The notes beneath the pieces are model-generated. The model was given only the letters and a program-made list of their open reading frames with translations. It was not told the origin of the DNA and did not search any database. Made by a program: the position numbers and the translations under genes. A stretch of 20,000 nucleotides of DNA from Chiloscyllium plagiosum (lineage: Eukaryota), in NCBI RefSeq assembly GCF_004010195.1, contig NC_057755.1, positions 7,989,034-8,009,033 of the forward strand, read 5' to 3'. Each line of letters begins with the position of its first letter. Position 1 is the stretch's first letter. Positions 5 through 16,536 of this stretch are shown piece by piece.

Positions 5-1935
5 GTTTAATGTCCATGCAGTACATGAAACGAGATAAATGAGCTTGTAGTGTGTATTGAAGGTGGCAAGTGGGATGTCATGGGGACAAAGTAACCAATG
101 ATACGGATCCTTTCAAAAGGACAGGCGGTGGGCAGAGAGGGTGGGCTTGCTTTGTTAGTAAGAAATTAAATTAAATTAATAGCAAGATGTGATATAGAGT
201 AAGAAGGTGTAAAATCATTCTGGGTAGAATTGGGGAACTGCAAAGGAAATATGACTCTGATGAGAGTTGTGTCCTGGCTTCTCAACAGTATTCAGGATGT
301 GAGGCAGAAAATAAATCAGGAAATAGAAAAGGTCCATAGGAACGACAATAGTACAGGAATAATGGGTCACCTCAATACACAGAAAATCGAGTGGGTCACC
401 CATCTCGTCTTCAAGATTTGTTATATTTGGAGCAACTTGTGATGGAGCCCAAAAGGCAACAGGCACTTCTGGATTTCGTAGTCTATTATGAGCCAGACTT
501 GATTGGGGATGCTAAAGCGAAGCAACCAGAAGGGCCAGTGAACATAGTATAACGAAATTCAGCTAACCGTTTAAGAGTGAGAATCTAGAAACAAATGTAC
601 TATTGCAATTGAATGAAGCTAACTACAAAGTCATGAGGCAGGAGCTGTGCACAGTTGATTGGAAAGAGTAGGGTAGCAATGTTAGGAGTTTCTTATCGTA
701 ATTGACGGTACAGAGCAGAAATTCATCCCAATGAAGAAGAAGCATACTAAAAGGAGAATGAGGCAACTAAGGTTGAACGGAATGTCAGAGACTGGATGAA
801 ATCAAATGGAAGTCACTTAAAAATAGTGGCAAGTTATAGGATTGGGAAACCTTTAAAAAACTAGCAAAGGATGACTAAAACATCTGTAAGGGGGAAAATG
901 ATGCAAATTGATGGTAGGCTCGGTCGTAATATAAATGAAGATTGCAAAATCCTTATTTATATACAAAAGGTAAGGGACAGGCAAAAGTGAATGTGGGACC
1001 ATTGGAAAATGAGGCTGAAGAAATAGTAATGGAGAACTACTTCTGACATTTGAGAGGAACTGAATGGGTAATTTGCAATAGTTTCAGAGTGGAGGCAACA
1101 GCAGCGTACCAGAAGTTCAAGACAGTCAGGGGCAGAGGCGATTTCGATTACCACCACGAAGAGGATGGTACTGGGATAGCTGAAACGTGTGATAACTATA
1201 AATCACTGGGACCTCACAGACCTTCTTCCACAGTTCTGAAGCAGATAGCTGAGGAGCTTATAGAGGCATTGGTGTTGATCTTTCAGGAATCCCTGGCCCG
1301 AGAAAGGTTCGCAGAGGACTGGAAAATAGTTCATGAATCATTTGTGTTCAGGAAAGGTGACAGGAAGACAGAAAATAATAGCCATCTCATTTGACCTCAG
1401 TCATCGCTAAGACTTTGAAGTCAATTTTTAAGGATGAGATCGCAGACTACTTGTAAATAAAGGAGGGCTGAGATGGAACGGTTTCATCAAGGGGATGTCA
1501 TACCTAACAAATATGTTAGAATGCTTTGAGGCTCTGATGAGAGAGTTCGATAAAAGAGAGCCATTGGACATGATCTCTGGATTTCCCGAAGACTTTTGGC
1601 TAAGCCCTGCACAGGAGGCTGCAAAATAAGATGCGATCCTATTGAGCAATGTGCGGGCATGGATAGAGAATTGGCTGAATGACAGAAGGCAGAGAGTGGG
1701 GATAAATGATTCATTTTTAGGATGATATTTGGTGATGCATGATGCTGAATAGGGCTGTGTATTGGTATCACAAGCATTCTCGTTGCAAATTAACGATCTG
1801 CATGAACAAACTGAGGCATTGTTGCGACGTTTGCAGAAGTCACAAGATAGGTGGAGGGAGAGATCGTGTTAGGGAAGTGGCGAGGCTGTAGAAGGAACAG
1901 CTGCATAGTGGGAAGCTTTGAAGAATGATATAACT
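5..1935 (+). mobile_element. Decayed CR1-clade LINE, ORF2 fragment (APE endonuclease through RT)
   Basis: ORF 1050-1394 reads KSLGPHRPSSTVLKQIAEELIEALVLIFQESL...EDWK...FRKG, matching the CR1 pattern KSPGPDGLHPRVLKE...PEDWK.ANVTPLFKKG. An HGF.KG.S.LTN-like stretch follows at ~1478-1530 and an INDL...FA.DTK-like stretch at ~1789-1850. Many stops and frameshifts; ends approximate. Confidence 0.85.
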
Positions 1936-2871: not shown

Positions 2872-3807
2872 TTATTTACATGTGTTTGGAAAGACAAGGA
2901 CTGATGAGAGATAGACAAGAAAGCTTTATGCATTGGAAATCGATTATCACTAACCTGACTGAGTTTATTTTAAAGAAGTGACAAAGAGGTCTGATGAAGG
3001 CAGAGTGGTGGACGTTGTCTGTGGAGACTTCAGCAAGGTGCTCAACAAGGCTACATGTGGCCACCGGAGAACTGCAATGATTGGTGCTGGTTCCACTGCA
3101 GTTTGCGATTTATTTTAACTGGGTAAATGTGAATACAGTAGGGACGATTGTAAGTTTACAGATGACAACAAAATTGATGGTGCAATGGACTGTCAAGAAG
3201 ATTATATGAGACTGCAACTGGACCTTGAGCAGATGGGCCGTTGGGCCAAGGACTGGCAGATGGAGATTAATATAAATGTATGTGAAGTGGTACAGTTGGG
3301 TAGGGGAAATTATGGCAGGTCTAATACTCTTAATTTTAAAATTCTGAGCAGTGTTTGGTGAACAAAGAAGACTTGGAGTGGACGTTGGTAGTTCCTTGAA
3401 AGTTGATGCGCAGGTAGACAAAATAGAGAAGAAGGCATTTGATACAATTTCCTTTATTGATTAATGCATCAAATTTCGGCGTTTAGATGTCATATTGCAC
3501 CGGTTAGGCCAATTTTGGAATACTGTGTTCAACTCTGATCTCCCTGCTATAGGAAAGATGGCATTAAACTTGAAAGGGTTCAGAAACGATTTACAAAGGT
3601 TTTACCCATGTAGGCACTTGAGAGCGATAGAGAGTGATTAATTAGGTTGGGATTGTGTTCTCTAGAGAATCAGAGGCAGAAGTTTATGGAGACGATAAAA
3701 TCACGAGGGACATGGATAAAGTGAATAGCATGCTCTTTTTTCCCAAGGGAGAGGAGTCCAACACTAGAAAGCACATTTTTATGGGGAAGCGGGAAATATC
3801 TGTTCCT

Positions 3808-7073: not shown

Positions 7074-7885
7074 TCACTGCATAAAAAAAAATGTGTTTGT
7101 GCTGCAGCTGAAATCCTTGAGCATTTCTCCGACTTGTGGAAAAATATTGGATTCTCCAATTGATTTTCCATTAATCCTACGGTATATGAAATGTATACCA
7201 TATACGAACCACAGAAGTATAAAGCTGATGGATATGGTGAAGAGGGAAATCACCGACTTCCTTCGGTTCTCCATCTCTGCGTCACTGTGACTTCCTCCAT
7301 TCCTCTGACCCCTCAGTCTCCTGCGGACTCGACTGGCCACTAAAATGTACCTGACTGTCAGACTATTCATCAGCAGAATTAACACGAATGGAATAAAAGG
7401 GGTTAAAATGTGACTAAACCAGTTAAACCCCAGCCACTTGGGATCAGTAAGGAAATTTGACTTTATTCGGCAGTACCACGGAACATTGTCAATTATCTTC
7501 CTAGGTTCAAATCGAAAATAGAATGGAATGTTGTTTGAAAAGAGCAGAATGCCAGTTGCAGCTACCACCACAGCCAAAGCTTTCTCTGTCCAATATGTTC
7601 TCTTCATTTTCTGACAACAAATGGCCACAAAACGATCAAAGGAGAAAAGGACTATAAACCAGACCGAACACTCTGTGGCTGCCTTAGCCAGGGCAAAGAT
7701 AGAACTACACAGAGGGGTTATGTCCAGGAAACACTTCGGGAAGTAATAGATCATCAGTCGATTCAGTATAATGTTCGTGCCAATGAACAGTAGATCCGCT
7801 GTTGCCATAGCCAATAAACATCGCATGGTGCAAGTAGAAAGGCCGCACTTTCCCTGTGCGAGGGCAAAAATCATGAGGGCATTAA
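7074..7885 (-). CDS. GPR139-like: GPR139-like class A (rhodopsin-type) GPCR, main coding exon (TM1 second half to TM7); frameshifted at the end of TM7, possible pseudogene
   Basis: Protein reads VNALMIFALAQGKCGLSTCTMRCLLAMATADLL...CSVWFIVLFSFDRFVAICCQK...LTPFIPFVLILLMNSLTVRYILVASRVRR...FILLW...SCSTNTF. It has the TM2 ADL, DRF, TM5 P and TM7 N motifs typical of the expanded chondrichthyan GPR139-like family. A polypyrimidine tract plus cag acceptor (minus strand ttttgtcttctgtttcttgcag, AG at 7887/7886) gives a phase-1 exon, so ORF positions 7886-8033 are intronic. Probably a paralogue rather than the GPR139 orthologue. Confidence 0.88.
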
Positions 7886-8351
7886 CTGCAAGAAACAGAA
7901 GACAAAATAAAATAAAAAAAATATTGGTTGAACAGCTTTGGTAACTCTCCGATCTTTGGAAGATCTTAACACCTAAGTGGGTCATTTGGGAGGTGTCAGA
8001 GATTGTCGTGAAAATTAAATCGACTTGACTCAACTATTAGCAAGAGCCAGGAAAGGAGCTTTATTTTTACTTCTGCAGAAGTGACTCTAGTACACAAATG
8101 CTAGATGCCTTAATGTAAAGGAGTGCCTTAGCATGGTACAGACACTTGCTTTATTCTGTTTCTTATCACACTCTCAAGGGAGAATCCCCTGGTCTTAGAC
8201 ATAACAGTTCTTTAGCTTTCACTGAGTTCGACTATCGCAAGGTCGAGTTGAATGTTTACAGAATTCAAACAGAGATAAGCTGACTTCAGACCTTCATCAA
8301 AGTATTTTTTATCTTATACAGCATTAAGTTAAAGAAAAGCATTCTCTATCA

Positions 8352-8429: not shown

Positions 8430-10630
8430 GTTTGGAGCTGCTCAATTCTGGTCTGAAGTAAATGGAAAAGTTAAAAACACACAACACCAGGTGAGAGTCC
8501 AACAGATTCTTCTGGAGTACAAGCTTTTGGAGTGCTGTCCTTCATCAGGTTGCTAGTGGAACAGGATCGTAGGACACAGAATTTATTGCAAAGTATCATA
8601 GTGTCATACAACTGATGTTAGATATTGAACAACTAGATTGCTGTTAAGTCTTTCATCTTTTAAACTGAGTTCCAAGTTTCGACACAATAATATGTAATCC
8701 CAGACCTACTTTCAATGCACATTCCCAAGGTAACTCAAGGTTGTATATAAAAAAAACTCAGCTCAGACAATGCATTAATGATGTGAGGTTAGAGTTTGCA
8801 GGCATTCCAATCTTGAGTTAGATTTGTGCTATTCCCAAAGTAGGAATTTATAAAATGTGACATGGATTGAGTGCCCACATTTTGCGTGCTATTTGAACAA
8901 AATAGATTGCACCAGCAAATACAATTCTGCAAATGCTAATTCATCACACAGAACTTTTCACGTGTTTGCGTGCAAATGAGAGAGGGGGGGGGGGGGGGAG
9001 AGACAGAGAGAGAGAGTAAGAAAGTGCGTGTGCTTATGATACTGTATGTGTGTGAATGTGTGTGTGAGAGAGAAAGAGAGTATGTATGTGTGTGGTAGTG
9101 TGCGCACGTGCATGCCCAAGAGAGACCGAGTGTATGAGAGCAGGTCTGCGTGAGTGTGTGACTATGTAGGGCTGTGTGTATGTGTGTCCTTGTGTGTGAG
9201 TGTGTGCGAGAGTACAGTGTTTTGGGGTTACCTGTAGTGTGGCACGAATGCAAGGTTCCAGTTGAGGCTATACTCATTGGTGCTGAACCTGGCTATCAGC
9301 CTCTGCTCGGACACTCTCCGTTGTTGTATACTCTGAAGTCTGCCTTGGAGGGCGGTCACCCGAAGATCCGAGTCTGAATGACCCTGACTGCTGAAGTGTT
9401 CACTGACTGGGCGGGAACATTCCTGTTTGGTGATTGTGTGTGGTGTCCATTCATCTGTTGCCAGAGCTTTCGCTTTGTCTCCCCATCCTTGCCTGCAGCA
9501 TATGGGATAGACAACATTGGCTGAGTCACATGAACATCTGCAAAGCACATGGTTGGTAATGTCCCCATGTGTAATGATAGTGATCATGCCCACATCTCTT
9601 GCAGTGATTGCTACGATAGAATTGCATGGAGTTGTGGGCGACTTCGTCCTGAAATCCAGGTTGTTAACTGCAAACAATTGTCTATTGCAGGTTTGACAAT
9701 TGTTTAAAGGCAAGAAATAGAGGTGTAGGAAAGGTCTTAGCGAAGTGCTCATTCTCATCAATAATGTCTTGTAGTCTGTGACAAACATGGCGTACTTTCT
9801 GTGCACCTGGGAAGTACTGGACAACGAAGAGTACCCTCTGAGTAATATCCGTGTCTGTCTCCTTAGGAGGTCATCATGGTTTCTCACCGTGGTACGTTGG
9901 AACTGACGATCAAAGAGTTGAGCATCATGCCCTGTTCGTATGAGAGCATCCTTCAGCACCATCAGGTGTCCGTCACCTTCCTCCTCATTTGAATAGATTC
10001 TGTGTATGCAGGAGACTTCTCCGTAGGGGACGACTATATTTTTTGGGGTGGGAGCTTGAACTTGTGAGGTTATCGGTGGGTTTGTGGGAGAGTGAGGTAC
10101 TGAGGTGCCTGTTCTTGATGAAGATGCATGTGTCCAAGAATGAGACAAATACTGAAGTGTAATCCATGTGGTGAGGCTTGTTGATATCAGTGTAGTTGTT
10201 TCAGTGACTCTTCGTCATGGGTCCAGAGGAGGGAAATGTCATTAATATATCTGGTGTAGAGTGCTTGTTGGAGGACCTGTAAAGCGAAGAAGAGTTAGAC
10301 AAACGTGTACATGGAAGTGTTGGCATTTTGGGGTGCACATTTGATCACATGACTGTTCGCAGTGTCTGCATGAAGAACTAGTTGTCAAATGTCAATACGA
10401 TGTGGTCAAAGATGAAGCATGTAAGTTGTAGTACGGTGCTCACAGATTGGCAGTTATTGACATTAAGAACTGAGGCTGTTTCAGTGATGCCGTCATCATA
10501 GGGAATGTTGGTGTAAAGTGTCAAAATGTTCACTGTGTCGAGGAATGTTCCTGGATTGACTGGTCCGTGGTGCTGAGTTTCTGTATGAAAGCTGTAATGT
10601 CACAACATAAGCTGGGGGTCCCCTACAATG
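8430..10630 (-). mobile_element. Penelope-like element (decayed RT + GIY-YIG endonuclease + 3' pLTR region)
   Basis: Minus-strand remnants: LYTNIP (~10500-10520), RYINDI (RT YxDD site, ~10236-10253), VSFLD...KPTD, PYG...IHRI, ANVVY.I.C (GIY half; the YIG part appears deleted) and VSEHF...R...EQRLI...N. The 3' region has GT/GA microsatellite and a hammerhead remnant at 8519-8550. Confidence 0.85.
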
Positions 10631-10784
10631 GGTTTTAAGATGGATCGACAAAATCGAAAATGTCTCACAGGGTTCCATTTCCTTGTCAGTCGGGAAACAC
10701 TTCAACAAGTCAAGGAGATTTGGCCTCGCATCTTCGGTGTCTATCCTCCAAGGCAAACTTTGGGACAAGCTACAACACAGAGTG

Positions 10785-11006
10785 CCAAAAGAGAAAATGC
10801 TGGAAAATCTCAGCAAGTCTGGCAGCATCTGTAAGGAGAGAAAGAGCTGACTTTTCGAGTCCAACTGACCTTTGACAAAGGGTCAGTTAGACTCGAAACG
10901 TCAGCTCTTTTCTCTCCTTACAGATGCTGCCAGACCTGCTGAGATTTTCCAGCATTTTCTCTTTTGCTTTCAGATTCCAGCATCCGCAGTAACTTGCTTT
11001 TATCCA
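10785..11006. mobile_element. Young fold-back (palindromic) non-autonomous Penelope-derived element with 13-bp TSD
   Basis: Inverted arms 10786-10874 and 10876-10966. Perfect flanking direct repeat acaacacagagtg at 10772-10784 and 11007-11019. Confidence 0.88.
10870..10905 (+). ncRNA. Minimal type I hammerhead ribozyme motif, U3-A8 core variant
   Basis: TTGACAA-A-GGGTC-agtta-GACTC-GAAA-C-GTC: core, stem II, GAAA, palindromic ACGT stem III and GUC triplet. Confidence 0.6.
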
Positions 11007-11942
11007 ACAACACAGAGTGACCGTGTAGAGGCTGATAGCCAATTTCGATAACCATTAGGATGGCATCAGTCAGGACATTGGGTTAATTTCAGGTGACCCC
11101 AATCCAGTATACACACACACTCACAAACAAGTATGCATCCACACCTGCGCACTCACTTTTTCGTAATCACACACTCACGCAGACCCTTTCTCATCGCCAT
11201 GTACACTTTCAGGCACATATACACACACAGTGCCCCACTCACACCATGCACACGCCGTCTCATAGCCATTTACAATATTAAAAACACGCACACAATCTAT
11301 CAAGTAAACACACGCAGTCACACTCTCCCTTTCTGTCTCCCTCTCTCACTCTCTCTTTCTCTTTCTCTCCCTCCCTCTCTCACTTGCATGCACACACACA
11401 TTGAAGTCTACGGGCTGAATTTACATTTGTAGAATTGTATTCGCAGATGCATTCGATTTTGCACAAAAACACACACAAAATCTGCAGGCAGTCAATCCAT
11501 GTCACAGTTTATAACTTCCTACTTTGGAAACAGGACCAGTCTGACCCAAGTTTGGAATACATACTGACTCTAACCTTATACCTTTAATGCTTTGTCTGAC
11601 CTGAGATGCCACCTTTTGTTTTGAGAAAACCTTAAGTTATCTCGTGAATGTGACTTGGAAGAAGTTATGGGATTTATGTATTAATGAATTAAAACCTGGA
11701 ACCTGATTTTAAAGATGAAAAGCTGAACAGCAATCTCGGTTTGTTCAACATATTGCACCAGTGTTTTACACTTTGTTTTTATAAATTCTATGTCTTATTT
11801 TCCGGCTCCACTAGCTATTTGACTTAGGAGCAGCATTCCAAAAGCTTGCACTTCCAAACGTACCTGTTGGACTATAACCTGGCGTTTTGTGATTTTTAAC
11901 TTTGACCACCCTGGTCCAAGATCAGCATCTCCACGTCTTCCG

Positions 11943-12294: not shown

Positions 12295-12488
12295 ATAAAT
12301 CAAAGAGCTGTGGATGCTGGAAACATGAACTGCAACAAAAACAGTTGGATAAAATCAACAGGTAAGGCCACATCTATTGACAGAAAAAGGGAGTTAACTT
12401 TTCGTATCCAGAATCCCTCTTCTTTAGAACATATTTTTCTGATGAAGCGTCACTGGACTCAAAACCTTAACTCAGTTTTCTCCGCAGA
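12295..12488. mobile_element. Old Penelope-derived fold-back element with decayed hammerhead motifs
   Basis: The left end gctgtggatgctggaa matches the reverse complement of the 10967-11006 tail. ctgatgaagcgtcactggactcaaaa at 12439-12464 has an inverted remnant at ~12393-12430. Confidence 0.65.
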
Positions 12489-12537: not shown

Positions 12538-14072
12538 TTGAGAACAATACAGCGGCCCTTCGGCCATCGATATTGCGCTGACTTGTGAACTGTTCCCATC
12601 TCGTCCCCACTACACTGTCCCATCATCATCCATGTGCTCGTCCAAGGATTGTTTAAATCTCCTGAGTGTGGCTGAGTTAACTACATTGGCAAGCTGGGCA
12701 TGCCATGCCCATACCACTCTCTGAGTAAAGAACCTGCCTCAGACATCTGTCTTAAATCTATCCTCCCTCAATTTGTAGTGATGCCTCCTCGTACAAGTTG
12801 ACATCATCATCCCAGGAAAAAAGACTTTTACTGTCTTCCCTATCTAAACCTCTGATCATCTTGTATGTCTCTATCAAATCCCCTGTTAGCCTTCTTCTTT
12901 CCAATAAGAACAGACCCAATTCTCTCAGCCTTCCCTCATAAGACATTCCCTCCAGACCAGACAGCATCCTGGTCAATCTCCTCTGCACCTTTTCCAATGC
13001 TACCACATCATTCCCGAAATATGGAGAGCAGAGATGTACAGAATATTACAACTGTGGCCGCAGTTGCAGGATGATATTGTGGCTCCAGAACTGAATCCCT
13101 CTAGCAATGAAACCTAACAAACCGTATGTCTTCTTAGTAGCACTATCAACCTGGGTGGCAACTTTCAGGGATCTATGTACATGGAGTCCAAGATTCCTCT
13201 GCACATCCACACTACGAAAAATCTTTCCATTAACCCAGTACTCTGCCTTCCTGTTATTCTTCCCAAAGTGCATTACCTCACATTTAGCTGCATTGAAATC
13301 CATTTGCCACATCTCAGCCCATTACATTTTTTTTTTACATTACATTACATTACAGTGTGGAAACAGGCCCTTCGGCCCAACAAGTCCACATCGACCCGCC
13401 GAAGCGCAACCCACCCATACCCCTACATTTACCCCTTACCTAACACTGCGGGCAATTTAGCATGGCCAATTCACCTGACCTGCACATCTTTGGACTGTGG
13501 GAGGAAACCGGAGCACCTGGAGGAAACCCACGCAGACACGGGGAGAACGTGCAAACTCCACACAGTCAGTCGCCTGAGGCGGGAATTGAACAGTCAGTCG
13601 CCTCAGGCGCTGTGAGGCAGCAGTGCTAACCACTGTGCCACCGTGCCGCCCAATTCTGCAGTTTATCCACGTCCCCCTGCAACCAGTAGCATTCTTCCAA
13701 ACTGTCATCTGAAAATTTACTAATCCACCCACCTATGCCTGCGCCTAAATCATTTATAAAAATGATAAACAGCAGTTGTCACAAAACAGATCCTTGTGGC
13801 ACACCATTAGTAACCGGATTCCAGGCTGAATATTTTCCAAGAACCACCACTCGCTGCCTTTTTTCAGAAAGCCGGTTTGTAGTCCAAACTGCTCAATCAC
13901 CATCAATCCCCTGCCTCTACAGTTTTTCCAACAGCGTACCATGTGGAACCTTATCAAAAGCTTGACTGAAGTTCATGTATACCATGTCAACTGCCCTACC
14001 CTCTTGTACATGCTTGGTCACCTTCTCAAAAAAACCTCATTGAGGTTTATAAGATATGACCTGCCCTTGACA
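12538..14072 (-). mobile_element. CR1 LINE, RT C-terminal half and 3' UTR (interrupted by SINE)
   Basis: Minus-strand ORFs WQMDFNAAKCEVMHFGKNN... and ALEKVQRRLTRMLSGLEGMSYEGRLRELGLFLLERRRLTGDLIETYKMIRGLD are typical CR1 ORF2 C-terminus. DFSQAFDKVPHG-like at ~13940-13975. 3' stem ggcccttcggcc at ~12553. Confidence 0.93.
13322..13651 (-). mobile_element. tRNA-derived SINE (HE1 / V-SINE type)
   Basis: 5' GGGCGGCACGGTGGCACAGTGG (A box), GTTCAATTCC (B box), V-domain-like TTTGCACGTTCTCCCCGTGTCTGCGTGGGTTTCCTCC, CR1-like 3' end gggccgaagggcctgtttccacactg and (TGTAA)n tail. gccca on both sides (13317-13321, 13648-13652). Confidence 0.92.
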
Positions 14073-15557: not shown

Positions 15558-16134
15558 GATGACAGAAAGAGAACAAAGTGCAGATGATGGAGAGGCAGGA
15601 TCAAAAACTGTGGCACTTGAAAAGCACAGCAGGTCAGGAAGTCTGGGAGGAGCTGGAGAATCGACATTTCGGGCATAAGCTCTTCATCAGGAATGTGGCA
15701 GGGTAGGGAGTGGAGGAATGGTGTTGAGAGAGAAAAAGAAGAGTAAGATAAGATAATAGGGAGAAGAAGATAATAGGGAATGCTATAGATGTGTGCAGTT
15801 GGGAGGTGATTGTGATAATTCAGTCAGGAAAGAGCACAAAACCTGGGAAGGCAGCAAAGTTAAGAGGGGTTGCAAAACATGGAGTTGCACCTTCCCACTT
15901 TCCTCTCCACTTTCCCCAAAGACCTATTACAATCATACCCATACCTACATCCACCTAGCCTTCCAAGTTAACTTCTCCCCACCCCGAACCTCCTCTTTTT
16001 CTCTCAGCCACCTTCCCCTCGTCCCGACACCCCTGCACACATTTCTGATTAATGGCTTATGCCCGAATCATTGACTGTGCTGCTCCTCCGATGCTGCCGG
16101 ACCTGGTGATGTTTTCCAGGGTGACACTTTTTGA
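15558..16134. mobile_element. Penelope-derived inverted-repeat element with hammerhead motifs in both arms
   Basis: Arms ~15600-15695 and ~16040-16134 are diverged reverse complements, with a purine-rich then pyrimidine-rich interior. Degenerate 16-bp TSD tgttctctcctaaagc (15542-15557) / tgttttctccttaagc (16135-16150). Confidence 0.75.
15661..15692 (-). ncRNA. Minimal type I hammerhead ribozyme motif (near-intact)
   Basis: Minus strand CTGATGA-A-GAGC-ttat-GCCC-GAAA-T-GTC; one mismatch in stem II and C>T in stem III. Confidence 0.6.
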
Positions 16135-16536
16135 TGTTTTCTCCTTAAGCATTGATCCCTTTATTTATCAAGAGACTATATATCTTTGTTTTAAATACAC
16201 TCAATGACATGCCATTCACTTCCATGTCTGGCAATGAGGTCTGCAGTTTCACCAGGCATTGGCTGAAGAATTTCCTCGACCCCTCAGTTTGATTGGATTT
16301 CCACTTCATTCTGAGACTGTGCTGTTGCATCCTCGTCGTTCCTAGGAATGGCTCCATCTTCTTTATTTCCACGCTATACGGGCCTGTCAGTATTCTGTAA
16401 GTTTCAGTCTTTCCCTCTCTCATCCATCTGCACTCCATCGAGTATGGACCCAGAGCTGGAAACTGCTCCTCTTATGAATGGCCTGCATCTCCAGCATCAT
16501 TCTTGTCCAACTTCTCTGGACCGCGTTCAACACTCG

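What the first reader, a model, noticed from the sequence alone, without database searches (positions are those of the whole stretch)
10870..10905. Hammerhead ribozyme motif with a compensatory U3-A8 catalytic core at the axis of a palindrome
Seen: TTGACAA(10872-10878)-A-GGGTC-agtta-GACTC-GAAA-CGTC. Stem II pairs fully (one G-U) and the GAAA and GUC triplet are intact. Known: the hammerhead core is C3UGANG8A, positions 3 and 8 form a tertiary pair, and the U3-A8 double change is a tolerated covariant. Minimal type I hammerheads with a palindromic stem III occur in Penelope-like elements. Inference: the two core changes are exactly the compensatory pair, which suggests this family was selected for self-cleavage and would be missed by CUGANGA searches. 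In this copy the inversion point leaves only about 2 bp of stem I and the long hairpin would sequester the motif.
Basis: partly seen in the sequence, partly recalled or inferred. Interest (0 to 1): 0.7.

Follow-up and report, generated by a model that had tools for sequence, protein, structure and literature searches.

The report
Penelope end-stub with variant hammerhead
This is one of over a thousand copies of the end piece of a Penelope-type jumping gene, whose family carries a hammerhead-shaped RNA motif with an already published U-A core variant that is predicted to cut itself only as a pair; this copy sits head-to-head with its own mirror image and is predicted to be inactive, so it is largely ordinary.

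Summary
The motif is real at the stated coordinates. It is the minimal type I hammerhead in the end repeat (pLTR) of an abundant Penelope-like retroelement family. U3-A8 is the family state: 1,076 of 1,178 copies with the rest of the motif intact. Sister families keep C3-G8. The family stem I is 4 bp; this copy has 2 bp and is buried in a ~180-nt hairpin. U3-A8 cores in Penelope hammerheads are published (PMC4209133), and this scan has already noted them on other DNA. Selection for cleavage is plausible but rests on one lineage switch; no cleavage was tested. The palindrome is a head-to-head pLTR insertion with a 13-bp target duplication inside an older Penelope-like copy. Side result: all 60 classifiable head-to-head pairs, of 74 found, join one short arm to one tailed arm. 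Copies start preferentially at the first base of stem I, 32 nt after a TATA box. They were therefore likely copied from uncut RNA, by priming at two sites. New member of a known kind.

The parts
10772..10784 (+). Left target-site duplication (13 bp)
   Evidence: Identical 13-mer at 10772-10784 and 11007-11019
10785..10874 (-). Inverted pLTR arm, short (tail-less) form; its own hammerhead is broken (the axis gives U at A6, and C15.2 is changed)
10868..10871 (+). 5' strand of stem I in this copy (ACCT, 2 bp); the family has AGCT (4 bp)
10870..10880 (.). Self-complementary core CTTTG-A-CAAAG that forms the head-to-head junction; axis A10875
   Evidence: sequence; same junction at 21 other loci as an exact 35-mer
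10872..10878 (+). Hammerhead core box UUGACAA (U3, A8)
10879..10894 (+). Extra A, then stem II (5 bp, G10.1-C11.1, one G-U) with a 5-nt loop
10895..10902 (+). GAAA box, palindromic ACGU in place of stem III, GUC triplet; predicted cut after C10902
   Evidence: layout as in PMC4209133
10903..10906 (+). 3' strand of stem I (AGCT)
10876..11006 (+). Direct pLTR arm, long form with the ~35-nt tail
   Evidence: 98.5% over 137 nt to the upstream pLTR of full element L199; two 3'-end classes
11007..11019 (+). Right target-site duplication
8467..11903 (.). Older, decayed Penelope-like insertion (body on the minus strand, inverted 3' piece on the plus strand) into which the palindrome inserted
   Evidence: 74% inverted self-match 8467-9016 / 11343-11903 and RT/endonuclease-like translations; no Pfam hit for 9228-10214

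Best explanation
The motif is the minimal hammerhead in the end repeat of an abundant Penelope-like retroelement family whose normal core is U3-A8, and this copy is a head-to-head pair of end pieces that is predicted to be inactive. Shown: family state, 4-bp stem I in the family, link to an RT/endonuclease body, target duplication, fixed 5' and 3' copy ends. Inferred: the element's RNA starts at the first base of stem I behind a TATA box; the U3-A8 pair keeps the core tertiary pair, so the family ribozyme likely cuts weakly, as a dimer through ACGU or with help from the element's protein. The pair was likely made when the enzyme primed cDNA on both target strands, at the short site and at the tail site, on uncut RNA. 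The two cDNA ends then annealed through CTTTG-A-CAAAG, a self-complementary stretch that the U3-A8 state itself creates.
For: Core tally with the rest fixed: U3-A8 1,076 of 1,178; C3-A8 62, C3-G8 2, A3/G3 26, U3-G8 6, U3-C/U8 6 (hand count of the 102 listed rows). The two C3-G8 copies are a chimera with another family (L202) and one segmentally duplicated, diverged insertion. In the first 100 of 2,719 rows sharing stem II, 37 of 41 sister-family rows are C3-G8 and 0 are U3-A8; 54 of 59 focal rows are U3-A8 and 0 are C3-G8 (hand count). Full decayed element L199: two UUGACAA hammerheads 3,234 bp apart flank DKG, RT, CxxC-linker and GIY-YIG-like pieces. 5' edges fall exactly at the A of AGCT in 35 of 94 positional loci; the TATA box starts at -32; the same edge is the best-supported upstream loose end in two large contig sets. 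One short plus one tailed arm in 34 of 34 and 26 of 26 classifiable pairs. Fold: in the window copy stems I and II have probability 0.0; in a near-consensus copy starting at AGCT stem II is 0.86-1.0 and stem I 0.3-0.9. Literature: PMC4209133, PMC3088659, PMC11167929.
Against: No cleavage, RNA 5' end or circle was observed. One switch cannot separate selection from drift. The Pfam support for the body is weak (RVT_1 at E 0.013 in 1 of 6 pieces). Only 2 of 379 arms begin exactly at the cut site, in a sample biased against them. Only 10 of 33 unpaired copies show a target duplication directly at the 5' edge; 5 continue into element body and 18 are unresolved. The core-axis junction is the minority form (1 of 39 pairs against 6 of 39 on the AGCT axis). 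In a lizard element, ribozyme mutants did not affect insertion in vitro (PMC11167929).
Confidence: 0.78

Rival explanations
1. Neutral switch: the U3-A8 state arose by two easy mutations in one master copy (CpG decay of G8, then templated correction of C3 within the near-palindrome) and spread with the element. The ribozyme is dispensable or dead in this family.
For: C7-G8 is a CpG in the C3-G8 form seen in L205, and its duplicates L206/L207 read C3-A8. After G8A the flanking stretch is one mismatch from a perfect inverted repeat, and that mismatch is position 3 (sequence). Copies were copied through the cut site. Ribozyme mutants did not alter insertion in vitro (PMC11167929).
Against: All other core bases, G10.1-C11.1, the ACGU palindrome and a 4-bp stem I are kept in the master. 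No mixed-state source family is seen: of 22 C3-A8 copies inspected, 5 keep a native-like flank and the rest are junction or deletion products or unclear. The same covariation recurs in unrelated organisms (PMC3088659, PMC4209133).
Confidence: 0.25
2. The palindrome came from one cDNA folding back on its palindromic 3' end and copying itself (self-priming), not from two priming events.
For: Self-priming was proposed for Penelope head-to-head palindromes (PMC3846280, passage read). It would also give a long first arm and a shorter second arm.
Against: In several pairs the tailed arm is reduced to its last 30-70 nt while the short arm is complete (L090, L172, L261, L269, L322), so the short arm holds sequence that the long arm lacks. 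Other pairs have 20-120 nt between the arms. Later deletion in a palindrome could mimic the first point.
Confidence: 0.25
3. The fixed 5' edge is a 3' splice site (pyrimidine tract then AG), as in Drosophila Penelope, where the intron ends at helix I, and not a transcription start.
For: The native upstream sequence is a pyrimidine tract ending in AG. The base before AG in 21 unpaired copies is C 9, A 8, G 4, like exon ends (exon-end frequencies recalled). PMC4209133 reports the Drosophila case.
Against: The edge peak includes the AG (21 of 55 unpaired copies at -4, 4 at -2). No shared upstream exon is seen. In L149, L163 and L186 the target duplication lies at or within 3 nt of the AG, which is not part of it. 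A TATA box lies at the usual distance.
Confidence: 0.12
4. U3 is an artefact of the inversion in this copy and the family is canonical.
For: The axis lies inside the core, so here TTG is the mirror of CAA.
Against: 64 of 69 positional copies with a native core read U3-A8, as do both hammerheads of full element L199.
Confidence: 0.01

Closest known systems
U3-A8 minimal hammerheads of Cercyon Penelope-like elements, Schistosoma mansoni (Cervera and De la Pena 2014, PMC4209133)
   Same: Minimal type I layout, no stem III, palindromic 15.2-16.2, extra base before stem II, G10.1-C11.1, 4-5 bp stem I, U3-A8 core, place in the pLTR, many single copies and close opposite-strand pairs.
   Different: Vertebrate host (likely a cartilaginous fish; inference); stem II 5 bp instead of 7-8; a homogeneous family (mean 3.4% from majority in 30 best-matching copies). 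The parts read report U3-A8 only for S. mansoni; the supplement was not seen.
Neptune/Nematis-type endonuclease-bearing Penelope-like elements with inverted pLTR and tail (PMC8557442, PMC3846280)
   Same: DKG motif, C-terminal GIY-YIG-like domain with CxxC, linker CxxC, inverted 5'-truncated copy, 30-40 nt tail at one end, target duplication, TATA box in the pLTR.
   Different: The papers say the tail is 'often' or 'optionally' at one end; here the one-short, one-tailed rule held in 60 of 60 classifiable pairs. Most copies are 100-140 nt stubs that begin at stem I.
Poseidon element of Anolis carolinensis (Frangieh et al. 2024, PMC11167929)
   Same: Two fixed 3' ends about a tail length apart; the hammerhead lies near the start of the ORF; uncut RNA is the insertion template.
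   Different: Canonical C3-G8 core and Poseidon clade there; activity was measured there (protein-assisted cleavage), not here.
Natural U3-A8 hammerheads (Perreault et al. 2011, PMC3088659)
   Same: Same covariation, stated to be active in vitro.
   Different: Those were not described as Penelope pLTR motifs in the passages read; minimal forms without tertiary contacts may tolerate the swap less well (recalled, not checked).

Membership tests
Minimal type I hammerhead of Penelope-like elements | Core boxes N3-UGAN-N8-A and GAAA with a Watson-Crick 3-8 pair and an NUH triplet | tested here: met
Minimal type I hammerhead of Penelope-like elements | Stem II with G10.1-C11.1 and an unpaired base after A9 | tested here: met
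Minimal type I hammerhead of Penelope-like elements | Stem I of 4-5 bp, family state | tested here: met
   AGCT in 55 of 69 copies with a native core
Minimal type I hammerhead of Penelope-like elements | Stem I of 4-5 bp, this copy | tested here: not met
   2 bp; stems I and II have probability 0.0 in the hairpin: a broken copy of a member family
Minimal type I hammerhead of Penelope-like elements | Palindromic 15.2-16.2 allowing a dimer stem III | tested here: met
   ACGU. The cofold minimum of two copies was not the active dimer
Minimal type I hammerhead of Penelope-like elements | Self-cleavage as dimer or with protein help | not testable with these tools
   Only contigs were available
Endonuclease-bearing Penelope-like element | pLTRs flanking one ORF with RT and C-terminal GIY-YIG endonuclease | tested here: met
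   L199: two pLTR hammerheads 3,234 bp apart around DKG, RT and GIY-YIG-like pieces; weak RVT_1 hit in 1 of 6 pieces; the copy is decayed
Endonuclease-bearing Penelope-like element | Inverted 5' copy, optional 30-40 nt tail, target duplication | tested here: met
   13-bp duplication in the window
Neptune/Nematis clade | CX2-5CxxC linker before the endonuclease and CCHH motif | tested here: inconclusive
   CxxC linker and YYIRCxxC...YI-like motif with two downstream His read by eye in L199 and L200; the first linker Cys is a stop in L199; no RT tree was built
Non-LTR retrozyme | Tandem non-coding repeats, each with a hammerhead | tested here: not met
   No tandem array at the site; copies are dispersed singles, inverted pairs or partial tandems tied to a coding element
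microRNA precursor | Rfam family match at the gathering score | tested here: not met
   Best 49 bits against a cut-off of 99; the hairpin is a transposon palindrome

The most novel reading that the evidence does not exclude
The stubs record a coordinated two-site priming step of Penelope retrotransposition in a living genome: a dimeric enzyme always primes one target strand at the short site and the other at the tail site, on uncut RNAs that begin exactly at hammerhead stem I. The U3-A8 hammerhead serves less as a cutter than as the self-complementary module that pairs the two templates or cDNA ends and so builds the inverted repeats.
Probability: 0.25. Interest if true: 0.55.

Novelty: new member of a known kind. 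Interest (0 to 1): 0.24.

Why it matters
As a ribozyme finding it adds a vertebrate family to a published core variant and confirms that CUGANGA-only searches miss whole families (here more than 1,000 exact copies). The stronger point is mechanistic: how Penelope elements form their inverted ends and tails is described as unresolved (PMC8557442). The strict short-plus-tail pairing and the fixed 5' edge give countable predictions that the existing in vitro system (PMC11167929) could test.

Tried and rejected
Rfam: no hammerhead family listed, only microRNA-like hairpin scores. Inversion artefact for U3: rejected. A C3-G8 source subfamily: the diagnostic pattern found 3 copies, which share flanks, so one insertion; polarity unresolved. 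A second large U3-A8 family with a shorter stem II region: 159 hits against 35 control; the 100 listed are deletion variants of this family or decayed copies of a canonical one; longer spacings were not searched. Genomic marks of cleavage (5' edges at the cut site): 2 at +31, 1 at +29 and 7 at +28 among 379 arms; most +28 cases sit on a 4-nt microhomology, and the sample was anchored across or upstream of the cut site, so inconclusive. Expression: no RNA holder listed; contigs only, so no start or cut could be mapped. Pfam on body pieces: 5 of 6 without a hit; older element piece no hit. Cofolding two 41-nt copies did not return the active dimer as minimum. Papers: searches for hammerhead + Penelope + shark, hammerhead + U3-A8 and hammerhead + C3U + G8A found no report for this family. 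Lunse et al. (RNA Biol 14:1499) was not held, and the supplements of PMC4209133 were not opened; either may list such variants.

Full report
Observation. The motif is the only match to a strict minimal-hammerhead descriptor in the window, and 2 of 200 Markov controls give one. It lies at the centre of a palindrome from 10786 to 10966 with its axis at A10875, inside the core. A 13-bp target duplication flanks the whole unit at 10772-10784 and 11007-11019. The unit interrupts an older, decayed Penelope-like insertion whose inverted arms match at 74%. The genome is 3.56 Gb; the best protein relative of the family's endonuclease piece is from a ray at 63%, so a cartilaginous fish is likely (inference).

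Family state. An exact 25-mer from stem II through the cut site occurs 1,537 times, control 0; a 27-mer from stem I through stem II occurs 1,773 times. With the rest of the motif fixed, positions 3 and 8 read U-A in 1,076 of 1,178 copies. By hand count of the 102 other rows: C3-A8 62, C3-G8 2, A3-A8 11, G3-A8 14, G3-G8 1, U3-G8 6, U3 with C or U at 8 six. Of the 22 C3-A8 copies among the 30 fetched, 5 keep a native-like flank; the rest are junction or deletion products or unclear. One C3-G8 copy is a chimera with another family; the other belongs to three copies that share flanks. In a positional sample (94 loci from the first 100 rows, six pair partners merged), 64 of 69 copies with a native core are U3-A8 and 55 of 69 have AGCT as the 5' strand of stem I, giving 4 bp. 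Among the first 100 of 2,719 rows sharing stem II, sister families are C3-G8 in 37 of 41 rows and never U3-A8, and the focal family is U3-A8 in 54 of 59 and never C3-G8 (hand count). In two large contig sets from coded organisms B and C no other letter reached 5% at either position. So the two intact states exist and mixed states are rare, but this is a single switch.

Carrier. Locus L199 holds a full decayed element: an inverted short arm, a hammerhead, pieces with DKG, RT, linker CxxC and GIY-YIG-like motifs, and a second hammerhead 3,234 bp on; both read UUGACAA. Pfam gave only a weak RVT_1 hit in 1 of 6 pieces. The motifs fit the Neptune/Nematis type as defined in PMC8557442 (passages read); no tree was built. 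Thirty best-matching copies with native upstream differ from their majority by 3.4% on average.

Copy ends. 5' edges fall exactly at the A of AGCT in 35 of 94 loci; 15 keep 10 or more native bases upstream; 23 begin further in. The native upstream holds a TATA box starting at -32 and a TGACTCA element at -55 (the reading as promoter elements is recalled knowledge). A target duplication abuts the edge in 10 of 33 unpaired copies, control 0 of 33; 5 continue into element body; 18 are unresolved. The same edge is the best-supported upstream loose end in both large contig sets, among 24 rows shown of 442. I read it as the RNA start (inference); a splice acceptor is the rival. 3' ends form two classes, about +97 and +132 from position 3. 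Head-to-head pairs make up 39 of 94 loci; 34 could be classed and all 34 join one short and one tailed arm (p 6e-11 under independence). A second set of 80 loci, chosen from rows not yet fetched, gave 35 pairs, 26 classed, all 26 mixed (p 1.5e-8). The other 14 pairs had at least one arm outside both classes. The window copy follows the rule. Junctions lie on the AGCT palindrome in 6 of 39 pairs and on the core palindrome in 1 of 39; the core-axis form occurs at 21 loci as an exact 35-mer. The core palindrome exists only because of U3 and A8 (sequence).

Folding (computed). The window unit folds into one hairpin of -155.6 kcal/mol with zero probability for stems I and II. A near-consensus copy starting at AGCT forms stem II (0.86-1.0) and stem I (0.3-0.9); adding 56 upstream bases lowers both to about 0.1-0.3. 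The natural C3-G8 copy L205 is predicted to misfold through a 6-bp helix across the core, 5.0 kcal/mol below the open form, against 1.5 for U3-A8. This offers a reason why U3-A8 could be favoured in this sequence, but it is one prediction.

Mechanism. Shown: family state, layout, ends, pairing rule, target duplication. Inferred: transcription from the pLTR starts at stem I; the protein primes on both nicked strands at two internal sites; cDNAs run to the RNA 5' end through the uncut ribozyme and join through short palindromes. This fits the lizard element, where both strands are cut and extended, two start sites define the tail, uncut RNA is the template and cleavage needs protein (PMC11167929, first two of four parts read). 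Self-priming is the published alternative (PMC3846280, passages); pairs whose tailed arm is truncated while the short arm is whole argue against it, unless deleted later. Whether the family ribozyme cuts is untested; I put it near even to modestly likely, since minimal forms cut poorly even as dimers (PMC4209133).

Against the reading. No RNA evidence; weak Pfam support; one switch with an easy mutational route; few edges at the cut site in a biased sample; the cofold did not give the active dimer.

Comparison and novelty. U3-A8 was seen in nature in 2011 (PMC3088659, passages) and in Penelope minimal hammerheads of S. mansoni in 2014 (PMC4209133, first two of four parts read). A review (PMC6765202, passages) describes dimer cleavage and pLTR promoters. 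The tail at one end and inverted copies are known (PMC8557442, PMC3846280). A 2026 preprint (10.64898/2026.07.22.740005, first part and passages) included one chondrichthyan for retrozymes. PMC6155905 and PMC7151607 (passages) added nothing on this family. Three searches found no report of this family; Lunse et al. was not held and supplements were not seen. The scan has noted U3-A8 Penelope hammerheads and palindromic stubs in at least three other genomes; a search by sequence found none like this one. Verdict: new member of a known kind, interest 0.24; the pairing rule is the part worth keeping.

Noticed in passing
window 15600-16135: Inverted pair of pLTR remnants of another Penelope family; the minus-strand arm at 15690 keeps a canonical CUGAUGA core.
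   Followed up: partly
window 12380-12480: Divergent pair of decayed hammerheads; the plus one at 12439 belongs to the sister type with a 4-nt loop and C3-G8 core.
   Followed up: partly
window 8516-8548 (minus) and about 11820-11852 (plus): The older host element carries its own decayed C3-G8 hammerhead, so four Penelope hammerhead families occur in this window.
   Followed up: partly
window 7074-8033 (minus): 319-codon open frame matching rhodopsin-family receptors (PF00001, E 1e-17).
   Followed up: no
window 1047-1868, 3119-3361, 12758-13321: Fragments that resemble CR1-type LINE reverse transcriptase (label recalled, not tested).
   Followed up: no
L036, L095, L099, L110, L204: Perfect AGCT-axis palindromes repeatedly show U3 changed to G in one arm; possibly selection against or repair of perfect palindromes.
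   Followed up: no
L020, L043, L201, L069, L086, L170: Partial head-to-tail tandems in which element body joins directly to the AGCT start, like template jumps; L020 and L043 hold two same-strand hammerheads about 200-350 nt apart, natural dimer candidates.
   Followed up: partly
L205-L207 (G000:C49, C100905, C29050): One diverged insertion, segmentally duplicated, with C3-G8 in one copy and C3-A8 in two; a possible relic of the state before the switch.
   Followed up: partly
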